This document shows positions 57,399-63,276 of a DNA stretch of 64,000 nt, piece by piece (position 1 is the stretch's first letter; every line of letters begins with the position of its first letter). Origin of the DNA: Spirochaetia bacterium (GTDB taxonomy: Bacteria; Spirochaetota; Spirochaetia; SZUA-6; Bin103); contig CBDBDQ010000005.1 in NCBI GenBank assembly GCA_965203905.1, forward strand, positions 1,728,001 through 1,792,000, given 5' to 3'. The notes below the pieces were generated by a model that worked only from the letters and a program-made list of their open reading frames with translations, was not told the origin of the DNA and searched no databases. The translations under genes were made by a program, and so were the position numbers.

Positions 57399-58550
57399 TC
57401 ACGGACCGGATCTGCGACGGTTGCCGTCGGCGCTGGTCGCGGGTGGGCGGCGCGGCGGGGCGTGGTCTAGCACGAAGGTCATCAGCGACGGGATGCCGGC
57501 GACCCAGACGACCGGCGGCCGTTGGGCCGGCGGGCTCCAGACGTAGCCCAGCCGGTTCAATTCCTCGCGTGCCGCCAGTCGCCCCGCAGCGTCTTCGCCG
57601 GTTGCGACGAGGGCGTCATCGAGGTCGCGATCGGTCGCGGTCGCCGCACCGCCTGCGAACGGCGCCGCCGCCGCAACCGCCGCCGGCAGCAGGGCGCGCG
57701 CCTCCAGTTCCCGATAGCGGTCCTGGTAGTAGTCCGTAACCCGTCCGATTACGTGCGGTCGCGCCGCCGCTGCGTGCGCGGCGGTCAGCCGGGAGCCATC
57801 GATGGCCAGGCGCTGCTGCCACAGGGCGCGACCCCAGACTTGAATGAAGTACGGGTAGCGCTGGCTGTGCTCGACCACCGCATCGAGGGCATCGGCCTCG
57901 ATGCCGACGCCGTGGCCGGCCAGCGGGTCGATCAAAGCAGCGCGGGCAGCAGCGTCGCTCAGCAGGCCGATGCCGAGGCGTCCTTCATCCAGCCGGCTCC
58001 AGAACGAGGCGTTCATGGTATTCAGGTGCGCCGGCAGTCCCGGAGTACCGGCCAGCACCAGCAGCAACGGCGCGTCGGCGCGCACGTCCTGGCTCAGGTT
58101 GAGCAGCAGTTGGCCGACTTCACGCGTGAGGGTATGCGCTTCGTCGACCAGCACCACAGCCGGTCTTCTACGGCAGCGCGCAGTCAGCCGAACCGTGAGA
58201 TCCTGCGCCGATCGCTCCGGCGCCGCCCATTCGGCTTGACCGATGCCGCGCCGGATGAACGACGCCGGTAACAAGGCGTCGGCCAGGGACTGCCCGGTCC
58301 GTATCCGGCTCGGCGACAGCCGCACGACGTCCACCCTACCAGCGTCGCGACAGGTGCCCGCGAACCAGTTGAGCAGCACGGTCTTGCCGTTTCCGCGCGG
58401 CCCCATCAGCACCACGTCGTGCGGCGGGGCATTGCCGCCCAGCAGGTCAGCCAGGCACTGCGTCAATACGCCCTGCTCCCGCTCGCGGCCGGTCAGCGCA
58501 GGCGGAGCGGCGCCCGCACCGGGAGTGAATACCCGTTGTGGGGCTCTCAT
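57399..58550 (-). CDS. AAA_16-like P-loop ATP-binding protein
   Basis: 'FTPGAGAAPP.L.GRE', Walker A 'GPRGNGKT', Walker B 'VLVDEAH', 'LAGTP', 'YPYFIQ'. Confidence 0.85.
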   Translation of the reverse strand: MRAPQRVFTPGAGAAPPALTGREREQGVLTQCLADLLGGNAPPHDVVLMGPRGNGKTVLLNWFAGTCRDAGRVDVVRLSPSRIRTGQSLADALLPASFIRRGIGQAEWAAPERSAQDLTVRLTARCRRRPAVVLVDEAHTLTREVGQLLLNLSQDVRADAPLLLVLAGTPGLPAHLNTMNASFWSRLDEGRLGIGLLSDAAARAALIDPLAGHGVGIEADALDAVVEHSQRYPYFIQVWGRALWQQRLAIDGSRLTAAHAAAARPHVIGRVTDYYQDRYRELEARALLPAAVAAAAPFAGGAATATDRDLDDALVATGEDAAGRLAAREELNRLGYVWSPPAQRPPVVWVAGIPSLMTFVLDHAPPRRPPATSADGNRRRSGP

Positions 58551-58889
58551 GGCAGCCACCGGACGGGGCGATACGCGATCACGGCCGGTAGGACCACTAC
58601 TCCTTCCTTGAATCAATGAGGCGTAACGCAGTTTCGATTGCCGTCAAGCCGTGCCGCCGGGCGGTGGGTCGTCCGTGCCGCTGCTGGCGCGTGTGATAGT
58701 CCGCCGCCTGGGCCCGGTGCCCAGCATGGCAGCCTTCGTGGCGATCCGCAATCTGCTGATACTGCCGATCATGGTGGCACCGCTGTTCGCCAACGCCGGA
58801 CGCTCCGACATCGGGTCTCGCTGATCATCGCCAGTGTGAACGGTTTCAACCTCGCGCGTGGGATCTCGATCACCGGCAACAGGCCTCGA

Positions 58890-59234
58890 CTACGCGTTGG
58901 CCACCGTAGCCTCTCGCAACCCAAGGAATCGCACGACCGCGTGGCTCAATCGCTCCATGTCCCGGGCACTCAAGTGACCGATGCGCTGCCCGAGTCGACT
59001 CTTCGGAACAGTCGTAATCTTGTCTGCCATGAGACGTGAGACCGACCTGAGCCCGTTGCTCTCACTCGGTGCTACCGGCAGCCGTATCAAGGGAGCCTCG
59101 GTCTGGTCCGTGGTGAACACACAGATCGTTATCGACGCGGTGGCGTCGAAGCGATTATCCTGCACGATTACAGCCGGTCGTGGTTTTCCGGCGTAGCCGG
59201 CTCCGGACACGGTCCACACCTCTCCGCGTCTCAT
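58890..59234 (-). CDS. mazF: MazF/PemK family endoribonuclease toxin
   Basis: 'MRRGEVW', 'GKPRPAVIVQ', 'NGL...S..M.DKITTV', 'IGHL', 'FLGL'. Confidence 0.92.
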   Translation of the reverse strand: MRRGEVWTVSGAGYAGKPRPAVIVQDNRFDATASITICVFTTDQTEAPLIRLPVAPSESNGLRSVSRLMADKITTVPKSRLGQRIGHLSARDMERLSHAVVRFLGLREATVANA

Positions 59235-60196
59235 TCGTCATTCGAATCCGTTATTGCATTGATGAAGGCTTGGTCCTCGCGCTCTCGGACGCTCTCGCCG
59301 ACCGCTTTGGAGTCTCGATGAGCGGCGCGACGATAGCCACACGAGGATGTGTCTTGCGTCAACTTGACAGCAGCATCGAAGTCACCTGCGGTATGCCATT
59401 CGATTCCATCCAGATTGACGGGACAACCAGCAGTCTCTAAGCGCTGAGCAAGCTGCTGCCGCTGTTGAGAAGTATTGTCGAGACGTAGGATATGACGCGC
59501 ACCAATGTCACTAAACGGCCGAACAGCTCCTAATTCCACAAGAATCGTCCTGTTGGAGTCTCTACCCATCGCCATGCCTGCTTCGAACAAGACGTTCGGG
59601 CGTGCCTGCCCGGTCGGTTCGACCTCGTATTTGGGATCGTTCTCGCTTCTGAACTGTTGCTTAAGGCACGCTTCATCGTCCGGCGTCAGTAACACGATCA
59701 CGGCATGAGCGCGTGCAAATGCAGCATTCAGAATCTCGCCAACATAGGGCGTTGGCTGTCCTGCAGCTTGCACCGCTTCGGACCACTCCAGAGGATCAAG
59801 CCCAACTGAATGCAAGAATGTGAATAGTGCTACTCGTGCTTTCTCGTTACGCCCATGGACTACAAACACGTGGCGTGAATCGGGCGGGGGAAACGAGCCC
59901 TTGGAGCCCCCGTGATCGGGGCCTTTCACTACTCCGGGAGGACCGGTTATCAGTTCATCGGTGACGTCCCGGCACACACTTTGGTCTTGCCATGATTCGT
60001 CTGTTTCTTCTATCGTTATACGTTCAATTTCTTCCAAACGTGTGGTCCTTCCGCGTAGAGTAATGGGCCTTCCTTCCTGGTACGGAACAAGCACACGGTG
60101 TCGGATCATTTCGAAAGATAAATCATCGACCCATTGCCAGTAGTTAGGATTCTCGACTGTGTAAATCTTTACGTGGTAGTACGCCATCTGTCCCAT
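59231..60196 (-). CDS. TIR-like nucleotide-binding protein (CAP12/Pycsar-type TIR) fused to a MazE/DUF3018-like antitoxin C-terminus
   Basis: 'VFVVHGRN', 'LLTPDD', 'ARPNVLFEAG', 'PFSDI'. Tail 'AHRDSKAVGES..EREDQAFINAITD..DE' with an ATGA overlap onto mazF. Confidence 0.82.
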   Translation of the reverse strand: MGQMAYYHVKIYTVENPNYWQWVDDLSFEMIRHRVLVPYQEGRPITLRGRTTRLEEIERITIEETDESWQDQSVCRDVTDELITGPPGVVKGPDHGGSKGSFPPPDSRHVFVVHGRNEKARVALFTFLHSVGLDPLEWSEAVQAAGQPTPYVGEILNAAFARAHAVIVLLTPDDEACLKQQFRSENDPKYEVEPTGQARPNVLFEAGMAMGRDSNRTILVELGAVRPFSDIGARHILRLDNTSQQRQQLAQRLETAGCPVNLDGIEWHTAGDFDAAVKLTQDTSSCGYRRAAHRDSKAVGESVREREDQAFINAITDSNDE

Positions 60197-60268
60197 CCCT
60201 TTGGCTGAAACCGTGAGGCGTCGGCATAACGCTGGGCAAGCGCGCCAAGGTGGCGCACGGCCTACACA

Positions 60269-61525
60269 TCAGGTCGTCGAGTCTTCCGGGGCCTCGACTT
60301 CAAGGTCGTGATCCTCGCGGTAGGTTGGGTGGTACTCCTCGGTCTCCACGTCGGGGTCGGAGTCCGGGCGCAACCGCTGCAGATCCCACGTGGTGATAGC
60401 CGCGCGTACTTTGTACCGCATGCGCTTCTGGTGGCTGGCACCACCTACTGCAGCGGTGGCCGCTGGTGCGGCCCAGTCGTATGCGCGGCCGTAGATGCGT
60501 CTGATGTGCTCGACCGCGGCTTCCACAACGTCGTCGGTCACCTCGCTCAGCCTCGTGCGGCGTGAGGCGAGCCACCGCATGCCGAGTTCCGCTTGCCGCG
60601 CCATCTGTGCTTCATCACGCTCACGCAACCGCGCAGGCACCTTGAGGCGGTCTCCCTTCTCCTCCAGGATCGCCTGGGCGAAGTCCTCCGTGATGGCCGC
60701 CACAACCACCAGCCCGGGATATGAGTCGTCGTCCGCCGCACCCATCCAACGGGCCAATTCCGCATACGATCGCGCGCGCTGCAGGAGGCTGTAGCTGCCG
60801 ATCAACTCCAACTCGTCGATGAGCACGACCCAGCCGCGATAGCCGGCCGTCTTGATCATCTCCAGTACGAAGCGTAGACGCTGCGGAGGCAGGTCGCGGA
60901 GCTTCGGAGCGCGGAACGTGTAGGCACCTTGTTGCCCAATCTGGCGCAGACCGCGTTTTACGTCGCCCACCGCCACCTTGTCGCCCGACCAGAACCACCT
61001 GATGGAGTTCAACACCTCCTGATCCGGCAGCCGTTCATGCACCATCAGCGTGGCAGGGAAGATGCGGTGCAGGCCACAGCCAGTACTGTCGGCCCACTGA
61101 AAGAAGCGTGCGTAGCCCGCGTCTTTCGGACCCAGCAGTCTGTTTCCGATTTCATCTACCATGGCGCCGACTCTCCCGTCGGGGAGGGTGCCGCTGTCGG
61201 CCGCCGCACGGAACATCTTGCCCAGGTCGTAGAACGGCGTCTCCTTGCTCACGGCGACGCGGCTGCAAACGAAGTTTCGGTCCAGCGCAAGGTCCTCGAA
61301 GTGCTCCAGAAGGTGTGATTTCCCGGTACCGAAATCGCCCGAGATCAGCAAGCCACCGGGATTATTGCCCGCGTCAAGACCGAGGCGAGCCTGAAACTGT
61401 TGTTCCGCCTGGGGTTGCGTGCTGCCGAGAATGCGCACCGCCTCGCGGTTCGGAACGCCGTTGCGCAAGGCCTCTATCGCACGCCGACAAGCAAGCTGAT
61501 CAGGCATGTTCCGGTCTGCTTCCAC
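60269..61525 (-). CDS. DUF2791/BrxD-like P-loop ATPase (intact motifs)
   Basis: 'RAIEALRNGVP', Walker A 'GDFGTGKSH', Walker B 'VLIDELE'. Start at GTG 61525 or ATG 61507. Confidence 0.85.
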   Translation of the reverse strand: MEADRNMPDQLACRRAIEALRNGVPNREAVRILGSTQPQAEQQFQARLGLDAGNNPGGLLISGDFGTGKSHLLEHFEDLALDRNFVCSRVAVSKETPFYDLGKMFRAAADSGTLPDGRVGAMVDEIGNRLLGPKDAGYARFFQWADSTGCGLHRIFPATLMVHERLPDQEVLNSIRWFWSGDKVAVGDVKRGLRQIGQQGAYTFRAPKLRDLPPQRLRFVLEMIKTAGYRGWVVLIDELELIGSYSLLQRARSYAELARWMGAADDDSYPGLVVVAAITEDFAQAILEEKGDRLKVPARLRERDEAQMARQAELGMRWLASRRTRLSEVTDDVVEAAVEHIRRIYGRAYDWAAPAATAAVGGASHQKRMRYKVRAAITTWDLQRLRPDSDPDVETEEYHPTYREDHDLEVEAPEDSTT

Positions 61526-61532
61526 GCCGGCG

Positions 61533-62483
61533 TCAACCCGTCATGCGGCACAGCGCCGCCGCCGGATTCTCCATTCTCTTGTCGCGTACGTCATCGATTA
61601 TCCTGGTCTGCAAAGCCGGATAGATGCCCACGCCGCGCGACTGTCGATCCGCTTCCTGATCAAGAAACTCGACTTCGCAGCAGGACACTATCATGCTTGC
61701 CGAAAGCAGGTCGGCACTGTCGATGAATTCGCGCAGTATCTCATAGAAGTCCATGGTCATGGCCCTTGTGTAGTAGCGCGAGCCGTCGGACTGTCTCTTC
61801 CGCGCGGTGACCCGGGCGCTGTCGAGAATCACTACCGTCCCGGGGAATCCGACCTTGGCAAACCAGTAGAACGCGGAGCGCAGCAGATGCCGTGCCGTGT
61901 TGCGGTTGATCGGGTTGTAGATCGAGAATGGCTTGACGTTCGAAATGCGCGTGTTGGCACCCGTGAGCCAGTCGATGATCGGCTGCCCAGGATAAGGCTG
62001 TTCCGCGGAACGCTCGAACAGGCACAGGTGCGACATGGCGACACGGAAATCCTTGGCCATGTTCACGTCGTAGAAGACCTGTCGCTGCAGGCGCGGATTC
62101 AAGGCGGCAAGGAGGAACTCCTTGGCTACGTTGTTGCGTTCGGCCACGGCGTGCAGCGCATCCTCGTCGGCCGCCCCCACGCCCTCCGTCAGGTAGCCTT
62201 CATCAGCAACCAGCTTGAGCAGGAAAGAACGCGCGGCCAGACGCCAGTCCACCTGCGCGGCGAGAGCGAAGAACAGATCCTGCGGCATGTGGAAACGATG
62301 CGTGGCGGCATCCGCGGTCAGCACGAGATAGTCATGACTCTCTGCCAGCGTGGTGAGAGCGGATCGCAACTCGGACCGCTGTCGGTCGTCTCCCACGACA
62401 AATTTGACTGCCGTCCCGCCACGTTTGACGAACGTAGCGAGATAATCCCGTTCGATCTGCTCCAGCCACTCCGCGAGGTGCAT
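61533..62483 (-). CDS. DUF2791/BrxD-like protein with degenerate Walker motifs
   Basis: 'GGTAVKFVVG' lacks the following GxGKT. Walker B reads 'VILDSA'. Conserved 'LREFID' and 'G.YPALQTRI'. Confidence 0.78.
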   Translation of the reverse strand: MHLAEWLEQIERDYLATFVKRGGTAVKFVVGDDRQRSELRSALTTLAESHDYLVLTADAATHRFHMPQDLFFALAAQVDWRLAARSFLLKLVADEGYLTEGVGAADEDALHAVAERNNVAKEFLLAALNPRLQRQVFYDVNMAKDFRVAMSHLCLFERSAEQPYPGQPIIDWLTGANTRISNVKPFSIYNPINRNTARHLLRSAFYWFAKVGFPGTVVILDSARVTARKRQSDGSRYYTRAMTMDFYEILREFIDSADLLSASMIVSCCEVEFLDQEADRQSRGVGIYPALQTRIIDDVRDKRMENPAAALCRMTG

Positions 62484-62487
62484 CGGT

Positions 62488-63276
62488 CTACTCGGTGAAT
62501 TGAACCCCGTAGTAGCGGATCAGGTTGCCATTGCGATCCACAAACGAGAAGATTCCGGTACTCCCTCTCACGGAACCGGTAAAGCTGACCCGTGCTCCTG
62601 ACTTCGTGGTCGTCACCGGCGAAGAATCCAGAAGGTAGATATCACGCGCGAAATCGGTCTTCGTATACTGCGCGCTGGTCCCCGGCAGCGAGGTGAACAC
62701 GGCGTAGATCTCGGCCAGCGGAACCACCCGAGTGACGTCCGACAGGGGATCGGAAGTCTTGCCTTCGATGACTCTGAATGCCTTGTAGAGCGCGTTCAGG
62801 AAGCGCTGTTGTTGGGCGGCGCTCTTCGGCCGCATCCGCTGCTGAATGGCACGCAGATCAGCCGCGAGCTTCGAGGGACGAACGGCCACACGCTTCTTGC
62901 CGTCGATTTTCAGCGCGCGATCTGCAGGGAACAGTCGAATAATCGACGGCGAACATACGAGTGCATCGTCGCGGCTGCTGACATTAAGCCCGACTGCCGC
63001 TGCCTCACCACGCAATTCGTCTGCATACCGCTCGCTCAGGTAGGCCGTCTCGTCGGACTCTGCGAATGGCCAACTCCCCTTGGCATCGGTCACCTTTTCG
63101 CCCGTTGTTCCCAGTGTGGCGACGAGCTGCTCACCCTCACGCCGAATCTTGCCGATGTCTCCCTCCTGAGCTGCTCTCCGCAACTTTCGTGCGGTCGCGG
63201 CCAACACCTTGGCGGCGGCCTCCGCTGCTTCGGCAGCCGCTTCGACCGCGGCGAAGGCCTGTTCGAAGGTCGGCAT
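62488..63276 (-). CDS. Hypothetical protein (helical N-terminus, possible winged-helix C-terminus)
   Basis: 262-aa ORF tightly packed between the cytochrome stop (1-nt gap) and the DUF2791 start (4-nt gap). 'VPLAEIY..FT..PG...YTK.DFARDIYLL'. Confidence 0.78.
   Translation of the reverse strand: MPTFEQAFAAVEAAAEAAEAAAKVLAATARKLRRAAQEGDIGKIRREGEQLVATLGTTGEKVTDAKGSWPFAESDETAYLSERYADELRGEAAAVGLNVSSRDDALVCSPSIIRLFPADRALKIDGKKRVAVRPSKLAADLRAIQQRMRPKSAAQQQRFLNALYKAFRVIEGKTSDPLSDVTRVVPLAEIYAVFTSLPGTSAQYTKTDFARDIYLLDSSPVTTTKSGARVSFTGSVRGSTGIFSFVDRNGNLIRYYGVQFTE

What the first reader, a model, noticed from the sequence alone, without database searches (positions are those of the whole stretch)
58890..60196. 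TIR protein ends in a MazE-like antitoxin tail and is translationally coupled to MazF
Seen: after the TIR domain ends ('WHTAGDF'), the last roughly 33 aa (59335-59231) read 'YRRAAHRDSKAVGESVREREDQAFINAITDSNDE'. The stop overlaps the mazF ATG (ATGA), and no separate antitoxin gene is present. From memory of the family, this tail matches the C-terminal half of DUF3018/MazE-like antitoxins (A.RQS..VA.S..E..DQAFID.I.D), which normally sit in exactly this position. Inference: the antitoxin's DNA-binding half was replaced by a TIR NADase module, keeping the toxin-binding part. This could act as a guard, where attack on or a conformational change in the TIR protein frees MazF. It could also be a chance insertion kept in frame because MazF must stay neutralised.
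Basis: partly seen in the sequence, partly recalled or inferred. Interest (0 to 1): 0.82.

Follow-up and report, generated by a model that had tools for sequence, protein, structure and literature searches.

The report
TIR defence protein doubling as MazF antitoxin
A bacterial TIR immune protein ends in the short toxin-binding tail of a MazE-like antitoxin and is co-translated with a MazF RNase toxin, so a defence enzyme has replaced the usual DNA-binding half of an antitoxin in a small, conserved group of genes.

Summary
ORF 59231-60196(-) encodes an N-domain, a CAP12/PycTIR-type TIR domain (PF10137, 9e-25) and a 40-aa tail. The tail matches positions 25-65 of 65 of PF11455 (MazE-like/DUF3018). 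The Pfam score is borderline (21.5 bits, cut-off 22), but a profile-profile comparison with 16 standalone antitoxins gives 99.1%, E 6.5e-19. Its stop overlaps the ATG of a PemK/MazF gene (ATGA).

- **Not a chimera:** the 12 best of 120 listed TIR homologs (59-83% identical) carry the tail and form one clade. A same-genus genome has a syntenic decayed copy. A second sample's contig bridges the junction.
- **Linked to MazF:** close MazF homologs share exact contig lengths with fused TIR proteins in 12 cases and form one clade.
- **What was lost:** standalone relatives have an N-terminal half and a GTTACATGTAAC palindrome just upstream. Both are absent here.
- **Predicted binding:** the tail sits across a MazF dimer (0.88; best control 0.43).

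Best reading: a chimeric antitoxin that ties MazF neutralisation to the supply of a TIR defence protein. The guard idea is untested. New variant of known kinds; interest moderate to high.

The parts
59231..60196 (-). Gene for the TIR-MazE(C) fusion protein: 321 aa from the first ATG, probably 318 aa from the ATG at 60187.
   Evidence: ORF list and sequence. The database form P0001 is 318 aa, and homologs start M-x-YYHV.
59933..60196 (-). N-terminal domain (residues 1-88), confidently folded alpha/beta. No family was found for it. It is shared with all relatives of the TIR family.
   Evidence: AF2 pLDDT is 86-95 over residues 1-88. Pfam gives no hit there. The Atlas search gave no usable hit.
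59348..59884 (-). TIR domain (structural residues 105-283; Pfam PF10137 covers residues 110-238), with the family-invariant E205 in NVLFEAGMA.
   Evidence: PF10137 at 9e-25. PADLOC PDC-S35 at 7e-18. E205 is invariant in 66 of 66 aligned sequences. Best Foldseek matches are TIR-STING 7un8 (E 1e-4) and SPARTA TIR chains.
59234..59353 (-). MazE-like tail (residues 282-321): the toxin-binding C-terminal half of a PF11455 antitoxin. It is modelled with low confidence on its own.
   Evidence: Pfam positions 25-65 of 65. hhalign 99.1%, E 6.5e-19. pLDDT is below 50 for residues 293-321. In the complex model, residues 288-321 touch both MazF copies.
59231..59234 (-). ATGA stop/start overlap between the fusion gene and mazF (translational coupling).
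   Evidence: Sequence. The same 4-base overlap occurs in 27 of 39 loci with standalone antitoxins.
58890..59234 (-). PemK/MazF-family endoribonuclease toxin gene, 114 aa, intact.
   Evidence: PF02452 at 2.6e-20, profile positions 1-108 of 109. It is 81-94% identical to MazFs that share contigs with fused TIR proteins. The nearest solved structures are M. tuberculosis MazF7 and MazF9 (E 2e-8).
60197..60268 (-). 72-bp spacer upstream of the fusion gene. It lacks the GTTACATGTAAC palindrome found upstream of standalone antitoxin genes.
   Evidence: The palindrome has 0 matches in the whole window at up to 2 mismatches, against one exact copy in 51 of 79 tail-bearing loci. The sigma-70 scan found nothing on the minus strand.

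Best explanation
This is a two-gene module in a low-GC defence island. Gene 1 encodes a PDC-S35-class TIR protein (N-domain plus a CAP12/PycTIR-type TIR) whose last 35-40 residues are the MazF-binding segment of a PF11455 (MazE-like) antitoxin. Gene 2, overlapping by ATGA, encodes a MazF endoribonuclease.

The tail is modelled with low confidence on its own and is predicted to fold across the MazF dimer groove. The TIR protein therefore acts as the antitoxin.

The module most likely arose once. The 3' end of a 400-aa-class TIR gene was joined in frame to about codon 25 of a neighbouring antitoxin gene. That join removed the antitoxin's DNA-binding half and its operator palindrome. Classic autoregulation is therefore lost, and MazF neutralisation depends only on continued synthesis and stability of the TIR protein.

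The consequences are inferred:
- Anything that stops supply of the TIR protein would free MazF. Examples are gene loss, host shut-off by a phage, and proteolysis.
- The TIR gene thereby becomes 'addictive'.
- An RNase back-up is added to a presumed NAD-depleting abortive-infection effector.

Shown here: the homology, the architecture, the conservation, the co-inheritance and the loss of the operator. Supported by a model only: binding. Inferred: neutralisation in cells, NADase activity and a defence role.
For: Domains and overlap:
- Domains and the ATGA overlap.
- The tail equals the C-terminal half of standalone PF11455 antitoxins.

Link between this tail type and this MazF type:
- MazF-like sequence lies directly downstream of the tail in 36 of 39 genome loci (26 near full length) and in 33 of 40 metagenome loci (29 near full length).

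Conservation of the fusion:
- All 12 best of the 120 listed TIR homologs carry the tail. They form one clade together with one fragment cut off before the tail (SH-aLRT 99).
- Two further clusters were found with the tail region alone, and 5 of 5 long tail-bearing proteins carry PF10137.
- Eighteen tail positions are invariant in 9 of 9 aligned tails, while the linker varies.
- At least three independent in-frame deletions removed the middle domain and kept the tail.

Co-inheritance with MazF:
- There are 12 exact contig-length coincidences between fused TIR proteins and the closest MazFs, covering 6 of the 10 fused clusters asked about. Two of these contigs are only 2296 and 2701 bp long.
- Those 13 MazFs (the window's included) fall in one clade of 20 rows (support 92). 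All 24 MazFs known to sit beside standalone antitoxins lie outside it.

Binding model and folds:
- Two MazF copies plus the tail score 0.88 (runs 0.88, 0.90, 0.86); the best of 3 controls is 0.43. That mark was reached by 58 of 80 solved complexes and 2 of 110 mismatched pairs. Runs agree in at least 86% of contacts, and partner pLDDT is at least 79.
- No PF11455 structure exists by sequence search.
- In the monomer model the tail is low-confidence.

Loss of regulation and lack of another antitoxin:
- The operator palindrome and the N-terminal half are absent.
- No other PF11455-like sequence exists in the genome.
Against: - There is no experiment. Binding rests on a model whose family type (MazE-MazF) is represented among solved complexes, so part of the score may come from likeness.
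- Adjacency of the fused genes to mazF in other genomes is inferred from equal contig lengths, not seen.
- No MazF contig match was seen for 4 of the 10 fused clusters asked about (P0005, P0009, P0010, P0012).
- The Pfam score of the tail is just under the curated cut-off (21.5 against 22 bits).
- The genome has 18 PemK-type matches, so cross-neutralisation by another antitoxin type cannot be excluded.
- The module decays readily. The same-genus genome G001/L003 has lost the TIR domain and MazF residues 1-59. Many 418-aa forms end within the tail at '...QAFIN', and 46-aa MazF remnants exist. TIR-family hits in the 6 other relatives with a match are partial or carry stops. This argues against a strong, lasting benefit.
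- NADase activity is assumed from family membership only.
Confidence: 0.75

Rival explanations
1. Integrated guard or dual-effector switch. The state of the TIR protein controls the tail: activation or oligomerisation, or binding or destruction by a phage counter-defence. Infection or an attack on the TIR would then release MazF. Conversely, MazF dimers bound to the tails could hold the TIR domains apart until release.
For: - The tail is tethered directly to the TIR domain. In the window's form only about 10 linker residues separate them.
- The closest structural matches of the TIR domain are TIRs solved as filaments or oligomers: TIR-STING fibres and SPARTA oligomers.
- The module lies in a defence island next to BrxD-like genes.
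- It is conserved over 14 clusters.
- A published precedent has a short neutralising element attached to an accessory domain proposed to be sensory: PanA/Panacea (PMC10440598, passages read).
Against: - Nothing here tests release.
- More than 5,000 tail-less relatives exist.
- The abundant 418-aa forms with a cut tail suggest the TIR protein regulates itself without MazF.
- Linker length and the middle domain vary freely, which is hard to square with a tuned allosteric link.
- Other, unrelated N-terminal partners carry the same tail: DUF427, VapB-like RHH, UPF0175. The partner may therefore matter little.
Confidence: 0.2
2. Frozen accident with no added function. A deletion between a TIR gene and a neighbouring TA operon survived only because the in-frame join still supplied the neutralising peptide. 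The pair then persists as a selfish addiction module and decays whenever MazF is inactivated first.
For: - Decay series: L003 has lost the TIR domain and the MazF 5' half. Truncated tails and MazF fragments occur. Relatives carry pseudogenes.
- The fusion is rare. It was found in 1 decayed locus among the 39 tail loci from 185,579 species genomes, in 0 of 20 matching plasmid records and in 0 of 1 matching phage records.
- The same tail occurs on unrelated N-terminal partners.
- The N-domain and TIR body have GC3 of 0.50 and 0.53, against 0.71 for mazF.
Against: - The clade has diverged to 59% identity with the tail motif intact.
- MazF co-diversifies with the fused TIR proteins.
- TIR invariant residues are kept in the fused clade.
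- Easy escape routes exist, such as deletions into mazF. Many lineages nevertheless keep both genes whole.
Confidence: 0.3
3. The tail is vestigial. MazF is inactive, or it is neutralised by another antitoxin encoded elsewhere in the genome.
For: The genome holds 18 PemK-type matches, and so presumably several MazE-type antitoxins. The Pfam score of the tail is below the cut-off.
Against: - The tail motif is invariant at 18 positions across the clade.
- MazF is full length, with 34 invariant and 36 nearly invariant family columns kept.
- No other PF11455-like sequence is in the genome.
- The complex model passes its controls.
Confidence: 0.06
4. Assembly chimera or annotation artefact at about 59340.
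For: The GC3 step within the gene.
Against: - The same junction is present in 14 protein clusters from other assemblies.
- A same-genus genome has a syntenic copy with the same order of parts.
- A contig from a second sample (X2, 59211-59519, 0 differences) bridges the junction.
Confidence: 0.01

Closest known systems
PF11455 (MazE-like, formerly DUF3018) antitoxin with PemK/MazF toxin, a type II TA. One example is listed as TA5 (PSPSV_B0012/B0011) on plasmid pPsv48B of Pseudomonas syringae (PMC6354349, one passage read).
   Same: Same toxin family. Same C-terminal antitoxin segment (AHRxSxAVxxSxxEREDQAFIxA motif). Same gene order and the same 4-base stop/start overlap.
   Different: The N-terminal half of the antitoxin (RxRLRxxGLRPIQIWVPD) and the upstream GTTACATGTAAC palindrome are missing. 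A roughly 280-aa TIR protein takes their place.
PDC-S35, a candidate defence system of PADLOC-DB 2.0 with TIR proteins of PF10137. That 'S' stands for single-gene is recalled, not checked.
   Same: N-domain plus TIR body. HMM hits of 7e-18 to 8e-12 against five PDC-S35 models. More than 5,000 relatives of 300 or 400 aa.
   Different: Those relatives end after the TIR domain or after a roughly 100-aa C-domain, and have no antitoxin tail. Plasmid-borne relatives inspected stand without a MazF.
PanA (Panacea-domain) antitoxins of the NetFlax network (PMC10440598, passages read).
   Same: Logic: a short neutralising element (for example Phd-C) does the neutralising, attached to a larger accessory domain. 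The paper reports that Phd-C fused to SUMO still neutralises.
   Different: Different families. The accessory domain here is a presumed enzymatic defence effector, not Panacea.
CAP12 (CBASS) and PycTIR (Pycsar) effectors, TIR-STING, SPARTA TIR-APAZ.
   Same: TIR subfamily (PF10137) and fold.
   Different: No cyclase, SAVED/STING or Argonaute partner was found in the neighbourhood. The N-domain belongs to no known family.
Fused toxin-antitoxin CapRel. It is mentioned in PMC10440598; further detail is recalled.
   Same: An antitoxin element covalently tied to another functional module, with release not needing dissociation.
   Different: There the toxin and antitoxin are one chain. Here the antitoxin peptide is fused to a second, unrelated effector and the toxin is a separate protein.

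Membership tests
Type II MazEF toxin-antitoxin (PF11455-type) | PemK/MazF toxin domain, full length | tested here: met
   PF02452 at 2.6e-20, profile positions 1-108 of 109. Family-invariant columns are kept.
Type II MazEF toxin-antitoxin (PF11455-type) | Antitoxin gene immediately upstream, with its stop overlapping the toxin start | tested here: met
   ATGA at 59231-59234. The same overlap occurs in 27 of 39 canonical loci.
Type II MazEF toxin-antitoxin (PF11455-type) | C-terminal toxin-binding segment of the antitoxin | tested here: met
   Pfam positions 25-65 of 65 at E 2.2e-4, which is 21.5 bits and just under the 22-bit cut-off. hhalign 99.1%, E 6.5e-19.
Type II MazEF toxin-antitoxin (PF11455-type) | N-terminal half of the antitoxin (PF11455 positions 1-24), presumed DNA-binding and dimerising, with the upstream palindrome | tested here: not met
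   Profile positions 1-24 do not match. The palindrome is absent from the window but present in 51 of 79 loci.
Type II MazEF toxin-antitoxin (PF11455-type) | The antitoxin binds and neutralises the toxin | not testable with these tools
   Model only: score 0.88, best control 0.43.
PF10137 CAP12/PycTIR-type TIR | Domain match above the curated cut-off and a TIR fold | tested here: met
   87.4 bits against a cut-off of 24.7. Foldseek finds TIR-STING and SPARTA TIR chains.
PF10137 CAP12/PycTIR-type TIR | Conserved glutamate of the active site | tested here: inconclusive
   E205 is invariant in 66 of 66 aligned sequences. That it is the catalytic residue is inferred from its position and was not superposed.
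PF10137 CAP12/PycTIR-type TIR | NAD+ hydrolase activity | not testable with these tools
   No assay was possible.
Pycsar / CBASS | Cyclase gene and a nucleotide-sensing domain beside the effector | tested here: not met
   The neighbours are BrxD-like ATPases, an AAA ATPase and MazF. No cyclase was found.
PDC-S35 (PADLOC candidate) | HMM match to the PDC-S35 models | tested here: met
   Five models match at 7.2e-18 to 7.6e-12.
PDC-S35 (PADLOC candidate) | Stand-alone gene. This definition is recalled, not checked. | tested here: not met
   The gene is coupled to mazF by the ATGA overlap.

The most novel reading that the evidence does not exclude
The fusion is a wired guard. The MazF dimer clamps the tails of the TIR proteins and holds their TIR domains apart. 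In turn, TIR activation, or destruction or sequestration of the TIR by a phage anti-TIR factor, pulls the tail off MazF. Blocking one effector would then fire the other. This would be a natural two-effector dead-man's switch built from a single in-frame join.
Probability: 0.18. Interest if true: 0.85.

Novelty: new variant of a known kind. Interest (0 to 1): 0.63.

Why it matters
Type II antitoxins are seen as two modules: a DNA-binding half and a toxin-binding tail. Here nature has swapped the first module for a whole immune effector and discarded the operator with it.

This gives a compact natural test case for three open questions.
- Can a bare neutralising peptide on an arbitrary carrier sustain a TA pair over evolutionary time?
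- Do TA modules serve to lock defence genes into genomes, or to back them up against phage counter-defence?
- How does a TA pair behave without transcriptional autoregulation?

The existence of intact, middle-domain-deleted, tail-truncated and fully decayed natural variants provides a ready-made allelic series for experiments.

Tried and rejected
**Searches that returned nothing useful**
- NCBIfam gave no significant family for the fusion or the tail.
- PDB sequence searches with the tail profile and with the standalone-antitoxin profile found no relative.
- The metagenome-contig scan found 40 tail loci, all with 58% tail identity or less. None carries the TIR fusion.
- The plasmid and phage collections hold TIR-only matches. 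0 of 20 plasmid records and 0 of 1 phage records cover 80% of the query.
- The sigma-70 promoter and terminator scan found nothing on the gene strand. This is uninformative for a high-GC organism.
- The Atlas search with the N-domain gave no usable hit.
- Earlier-findings look-ups by place, by words and by sequence showed nothing.

**Literature**
- 'TIR domain, MazF, antitoxin, fusion' found 3 reviews.
- 'PDC-S35' found 0 papers.
- 'DUF3018' found 3 papers.
- 'PemK, TIR, NADase, toxin-antitoxin' found 2 reviews.
- A five-term search found 18 papers, none on this fusion by title or abstract.
- 'MazE-like / PF11455' returned only unrelated 'maze-like' papers.
- The palindrome string found 2 unrelated tobacco papers.
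- The 'chimeric antitoxin' terms found 0 papers.
- Supplementary files were not consulted. A PDC-S35 description may sit in one.

**Sequencing runs and counts**
- No RNA holder was listed among the sequencing runs.
- Parts of the stretch have no cover in runs X2, X3 and X5.
- My first ORF-based count of MazF downstream of the tail, 32 of 39, missed broken or oddly started copies. The tblastn count of 36 of 39 replaces it.
- My first regex for the tail missed P0011, which was corrected.
- The careful IQ-TREE search did not finish. The quick tree is what I cite.
Full report
**1. What is in the sequence**

Two overlapping genes lie on the minus strand.
- A 321-aa ORF spans 59231-60196. Its likely true start is the ATG at 60187, giving 318 aa. 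That is the form in the protein database, and homologs begin M-x-YYHV.
- A 114-aa ORF spans 58890-59234.
- The first gene's stop TGA and the second gene's ATG share the letters ATGA at 59231-59234.

Pfam reads the first protein as a CAP12/PycTIR-type TIR domain (PF10137, residues 110-238, 9e-25). It also finds a weak match of residues 282-321 to positions 25-65 of the 65-position PF11455 'MazE-like' model, formerly DUF3018. That match scores E 0.0088 in the whole protein. For the tail alone it scores 2.2e-4 and 21.5 bits, just under the 22-bit cut-off. The second protein is a full-length PemK/MazF toxin (PF02452, 2.6e-20).

**2. Is the tail really an antitoxin half?**

Yes. I aligned the tails of nine fused proteins (A2) and scanned two public collections with that alignment.
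- It found 39 loci in species-representative genomes and 40 in metagenomes.
- In nearly all of them the motif closes a small ORF of roughly 55-120 aa.
- Seven such ORFs were scanned. Five are complete PF11455 members (E 1e-23 to 1e-27). One combines UPF0175 with PF11455, and one combines DUF427 with the tail.
- A profile of 16 standalone antitoxins (A5) matches the tail profile with hhalign probability 99.1% and E 6.5e-19. The match covers 40 columns at 50% identity and falls exactly on the C-terminal half, columns 40-79 of 79.
- Against 1.84 billion representative proteins the tail profile gave 118 hits at E 0.001 or better. Of these, 114 are 142 aa or shorter, and they include full PF11455 members.

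The tail is also tied to this MazF type. MazF-like sequence lies directly downstream of the tail in 36 of 39 genome loci (26 near full length) and in 33 of 40 metagenome loci (29 near full length). Three of the 7 metagenome misses have 252 bases or fewer of room downstream. In 27 of the 39 genome loci the two genes overlap by the same four bases.

**3. What was lost**

Standalone antitoxins have an N-terminal half (consensus RxRLRxxGLRPIQIWVPD). Just upstream of the gene they also have an exact 12-bp palindrome, GTTACATGTAAC.
- The palindrome occurs once, on the gene strand, in 51 of the 79 tail-bearing loci. It occurs in none of the other 13 loci held.
- The window has no copy, even at two mismatches.
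- Homology of the fused tail starts at the D of 'WVPD'.

The fusion therefore kept the toxin-binding half. It dropped the presumed DNA-binding half together with its presumed operator. That the palindrome is an operator is my inference. I found no paper on it.

**4. Not an artefact, and not unique**

- Of the 120 best TIR homologs listed (5,450 proteins at E 0.001 or better), exactly the top 12 carry the same tail. They are 59-83% identical to the window protein.
- In a quick maximum-likelihood tree these 12 form one clade, together with one fragment cut off before the tail (SH-aLRT 99).
- A search with the tail region alone added two more clusters. All 5 long proteins it found carry PF10137. 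The total is 14 clusters with 55 member sequences.
- A same-genus genome (G001, the same locus as L003) is syntenic at 78% nucleotide identity from the window's upstream genes down to 59933. It then lacks about 600 bp (the TIR domain), keeps the tail (59323-59248), lacks 59247-59057 (the tail's end plus MazF residues 1-59), and keeps MazF residues 60-113. The order N-domain, tail, mazF is therefore older than the split of the two species.
- Run X1 holds the whole stretch in one contig, but it may be the source of the assembly.
- A contig from a second sample of the same study (X2, 59211-59519, no differences) bridges the junction.

**5. Co-inheritance with MazF**

The tool that shows gene neighbourhoods was closed, so I compared contig lengths recorded for protein clusters.
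- Twelve fused TIR proteins share their exact contig length with one of the closest MazF homologs: 8687, 267139, 4604808, 36922, 5997950, 3516189, 10259, 43776, 2701, 9114, 2296 and 13399 bp.
- These cover 6 of the 10 fused clusters I asked about.
- On the 2296- and 2701-bp contigs the two genes must lie within a few hundred bases of each other.
- No match was seen for P0005, P0009, P0010 or P0012.

In a FastTree of 152 MazFs, the 13 'TIR-linked' ones (the window's included) sit in one clade of 20 rows (support 92). All 24 MazFs known to follow standalone antitoxins lie outside it. This fits one fusion event followed by inheritance of the pair as a unit.

**6. History of the fusion protein**

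- Tail-less relatives come in two classes, of about 300 aa and about 400 aa. The longer class has a C-terminal domain of about 100 aa with weak winged-helix hits.
- Fused forms of about 420 aa (P0002, P0003, P0006, P0007, P0011) carry this domain and then the tail. The tail was therefore added to a 400-aa-class protein.
- The window's protein and several others lack the middle domain.
- By the tree, the losses are at least three separate in-frame deletions: P0004 against its sister P0002; the P0001/P0005 pair; and the P0008/P0009/P0010/P0012 group. Each left the tail in frame.
- Across the nine aligned tails 18 positions are invariant, while the linker varies.

Together these points argue for selection on the tail.

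**7. Structure**

- AlphaFold2 with a 66-row alignment gives a mean pLDDT of 83. The N-domain (1-88) and the TIR domain (105-283) are confident. The tail has pLDDT below 50 for residues 293-321.
- Best Foldseek matches are bacterial TIRs: TIR-STING 7un8 at E 1e-4, and SPARTA TIR-APAZ chains.
- E205, in the motif NVLFEAGMA, is invariant in 66 of 66 aligned sequences. I take it to be the catalytic glutamate by inference.
- A complex model of two MazF chains plus the 42-aa tail scored 0.88 (runs 0.88, 0.90, 0.86). The best of three controls scored 0.43.
- That mark was reached by 58 of 80 solved complexes and 2 of 110 mismatched pairs. Runs agree in at least 86% of contacts, and partner pLDDT is at least 79.
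- Tail residues 288-321 touch both MazF copies, including MazF residues 9-19 and 41-51.
- No PF11455 structure exists by sequence search. The nearest solved MazFs are M. tuberculosis MazF7 and MazF9.
- MazE-MazF complexes of other families are solved, so part of the score may reflect likeness to them.

**8. Context**

- The pair lies in a low-GC stretch (51-66% GC against about 70-74% in the flanks).
- It sits downstream of three genes: an unassigned 262-aa ORF and two BrxD-like proteins. These remain intact in G001, where the TIR-MazF module has decayed, so they look like an independent system.
- The genome holds 18 PemK-type matches but no other PF11455-like sequence.
- Four small ORFs around mazF match no antitoxin family.

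**9. How it most likely works**

The TIR protein serves as the antitoxin through its tail. Translational coupling sets the ratio of the two proteins. Without the DNA-binding half and the palindrome, the pair cannot autoregulate in the classic way. MazF neutralisation therefore depends on continued supply of the TIR protein.

I give about 0.8 to tail-dependent neutralisation and 0.6 to the TIR being an active NAD-consuming defence effector.

Several observations weigh against a strong integrated function:
- the module decays often (G001; 418-aa forms whose tail stops at '...QAFIN'; a 46-aa MazF remnant seen on 3 contigs; pseudogenes in relatives);
- the fusion is rare;
- the same tail occurs on unrelated partners, namely DUF427 in L037, a VapB-like RHH in P0285/L005, UPF0175 in L016, and an unassigned domain in P0316.

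The last point agrees with the published finding that a short neutralising peptide works on an arbitrary carrier (PMC10440598, passages read).

**10. Novelty**

I found no paper describing a TIR-antitoxin fusion with MazF. The parts are known families. The combination, and the loss of the operator with the DNA-binding half, is a new variant. It is a real, conserved natural chimera with a ready-made series of natural deletion variants, and its biology can be tested with simple experiments.

Noticed in passing
L002-L080, about 100-240 nt upstream of the tail match (for example L009 272-283, L025 3888-3899): An exact 12-bp palindrome, GTTACATGTAAC, sits just upstream of standalone PF11455 antitoxin genes in 51 of 79 loci from several phyla. 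It is probably their operator. It is absent from the window and was not found in the literature as a TA operator.
   Followed up: partly
window 60269-63276 (-): Three co-oriented genes lie upstream: a 262-aa ORF with no family, a 316-aa BrxD-like protein, and a 418-aa BrxD-like P-loop ATPase (PF10923; PADLOC BrxD at 1e-17, with a weak SngB hit). The set is conserved and intact in the same-genus genome L003, although the TIR-MazF module there has decayed. It is possibly a separate defence system.
   Followed up: partly
L003 3725-4236 (the same place as G001:C1, about 534757-535017): A decayed sister copy: a 119-aa ORF joining the N-domain directly to the tail, followed by a remnant of MazF residues 60-113.
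   Followed up: yes
window 59331 to 60236, run X3: One contig of a coral metagenome joins the tail-coding piece (59247-59331) to 60236 with 26 other letters between, so the whole TIR ORF is missing. It then continues unlike the window where mazF should be. This is weak evidence: 46 letters on one side and 8 differences in 85 letters.
   Followed up: no
L037 3713-4093; L016 3494-4126; L005 3881-4105; P0316: The same antitoxin tail sits on other N-terminal partners. L037 has DUF427 plus the tail, followed by MazF with an ATGA overlap. L016 has UPF0175 plus a full PF11455. L005 (same as P0285) has a VapB-like RHH plus the tail. P0316 has an unassigned 90-aa domain.
   Followed up: partly
P0003 cluster (418-aa members), P0242: Many fused proteins end inside the tail at '...QAFIN', 8 residues short. 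A 46-aa MazF C-terminal fragment occurs on 3 contigs. This suggests a recurrent deletion spanning the tail's end and the mazF 5' half that leaves the TIR protein whole.
   Followed up: partly
window 58893-60196: GC3 rises along the module: N-domain 0.50, TIR 0.53, tail 0.61, MazF 0.71. Neighbouring island genes have 0.70-0.77 and the core cytochrome c gene 0.95.
   Followed up: no
G000 whole genome: There are 18 PemK/MazF-type matches in the 7.99-Mb genome. TIR-family genes in relatives are mostly partial or carry stops, for example G019 with 2 TGA stops.
   Followed up: no
window 57399-58616 (-): A 405-aa AAA_22/AAA_16 ATPase gene lies 273 bp downstream of mazF, at core-like GC. It is not syntenic with L003.
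   Followed up: no
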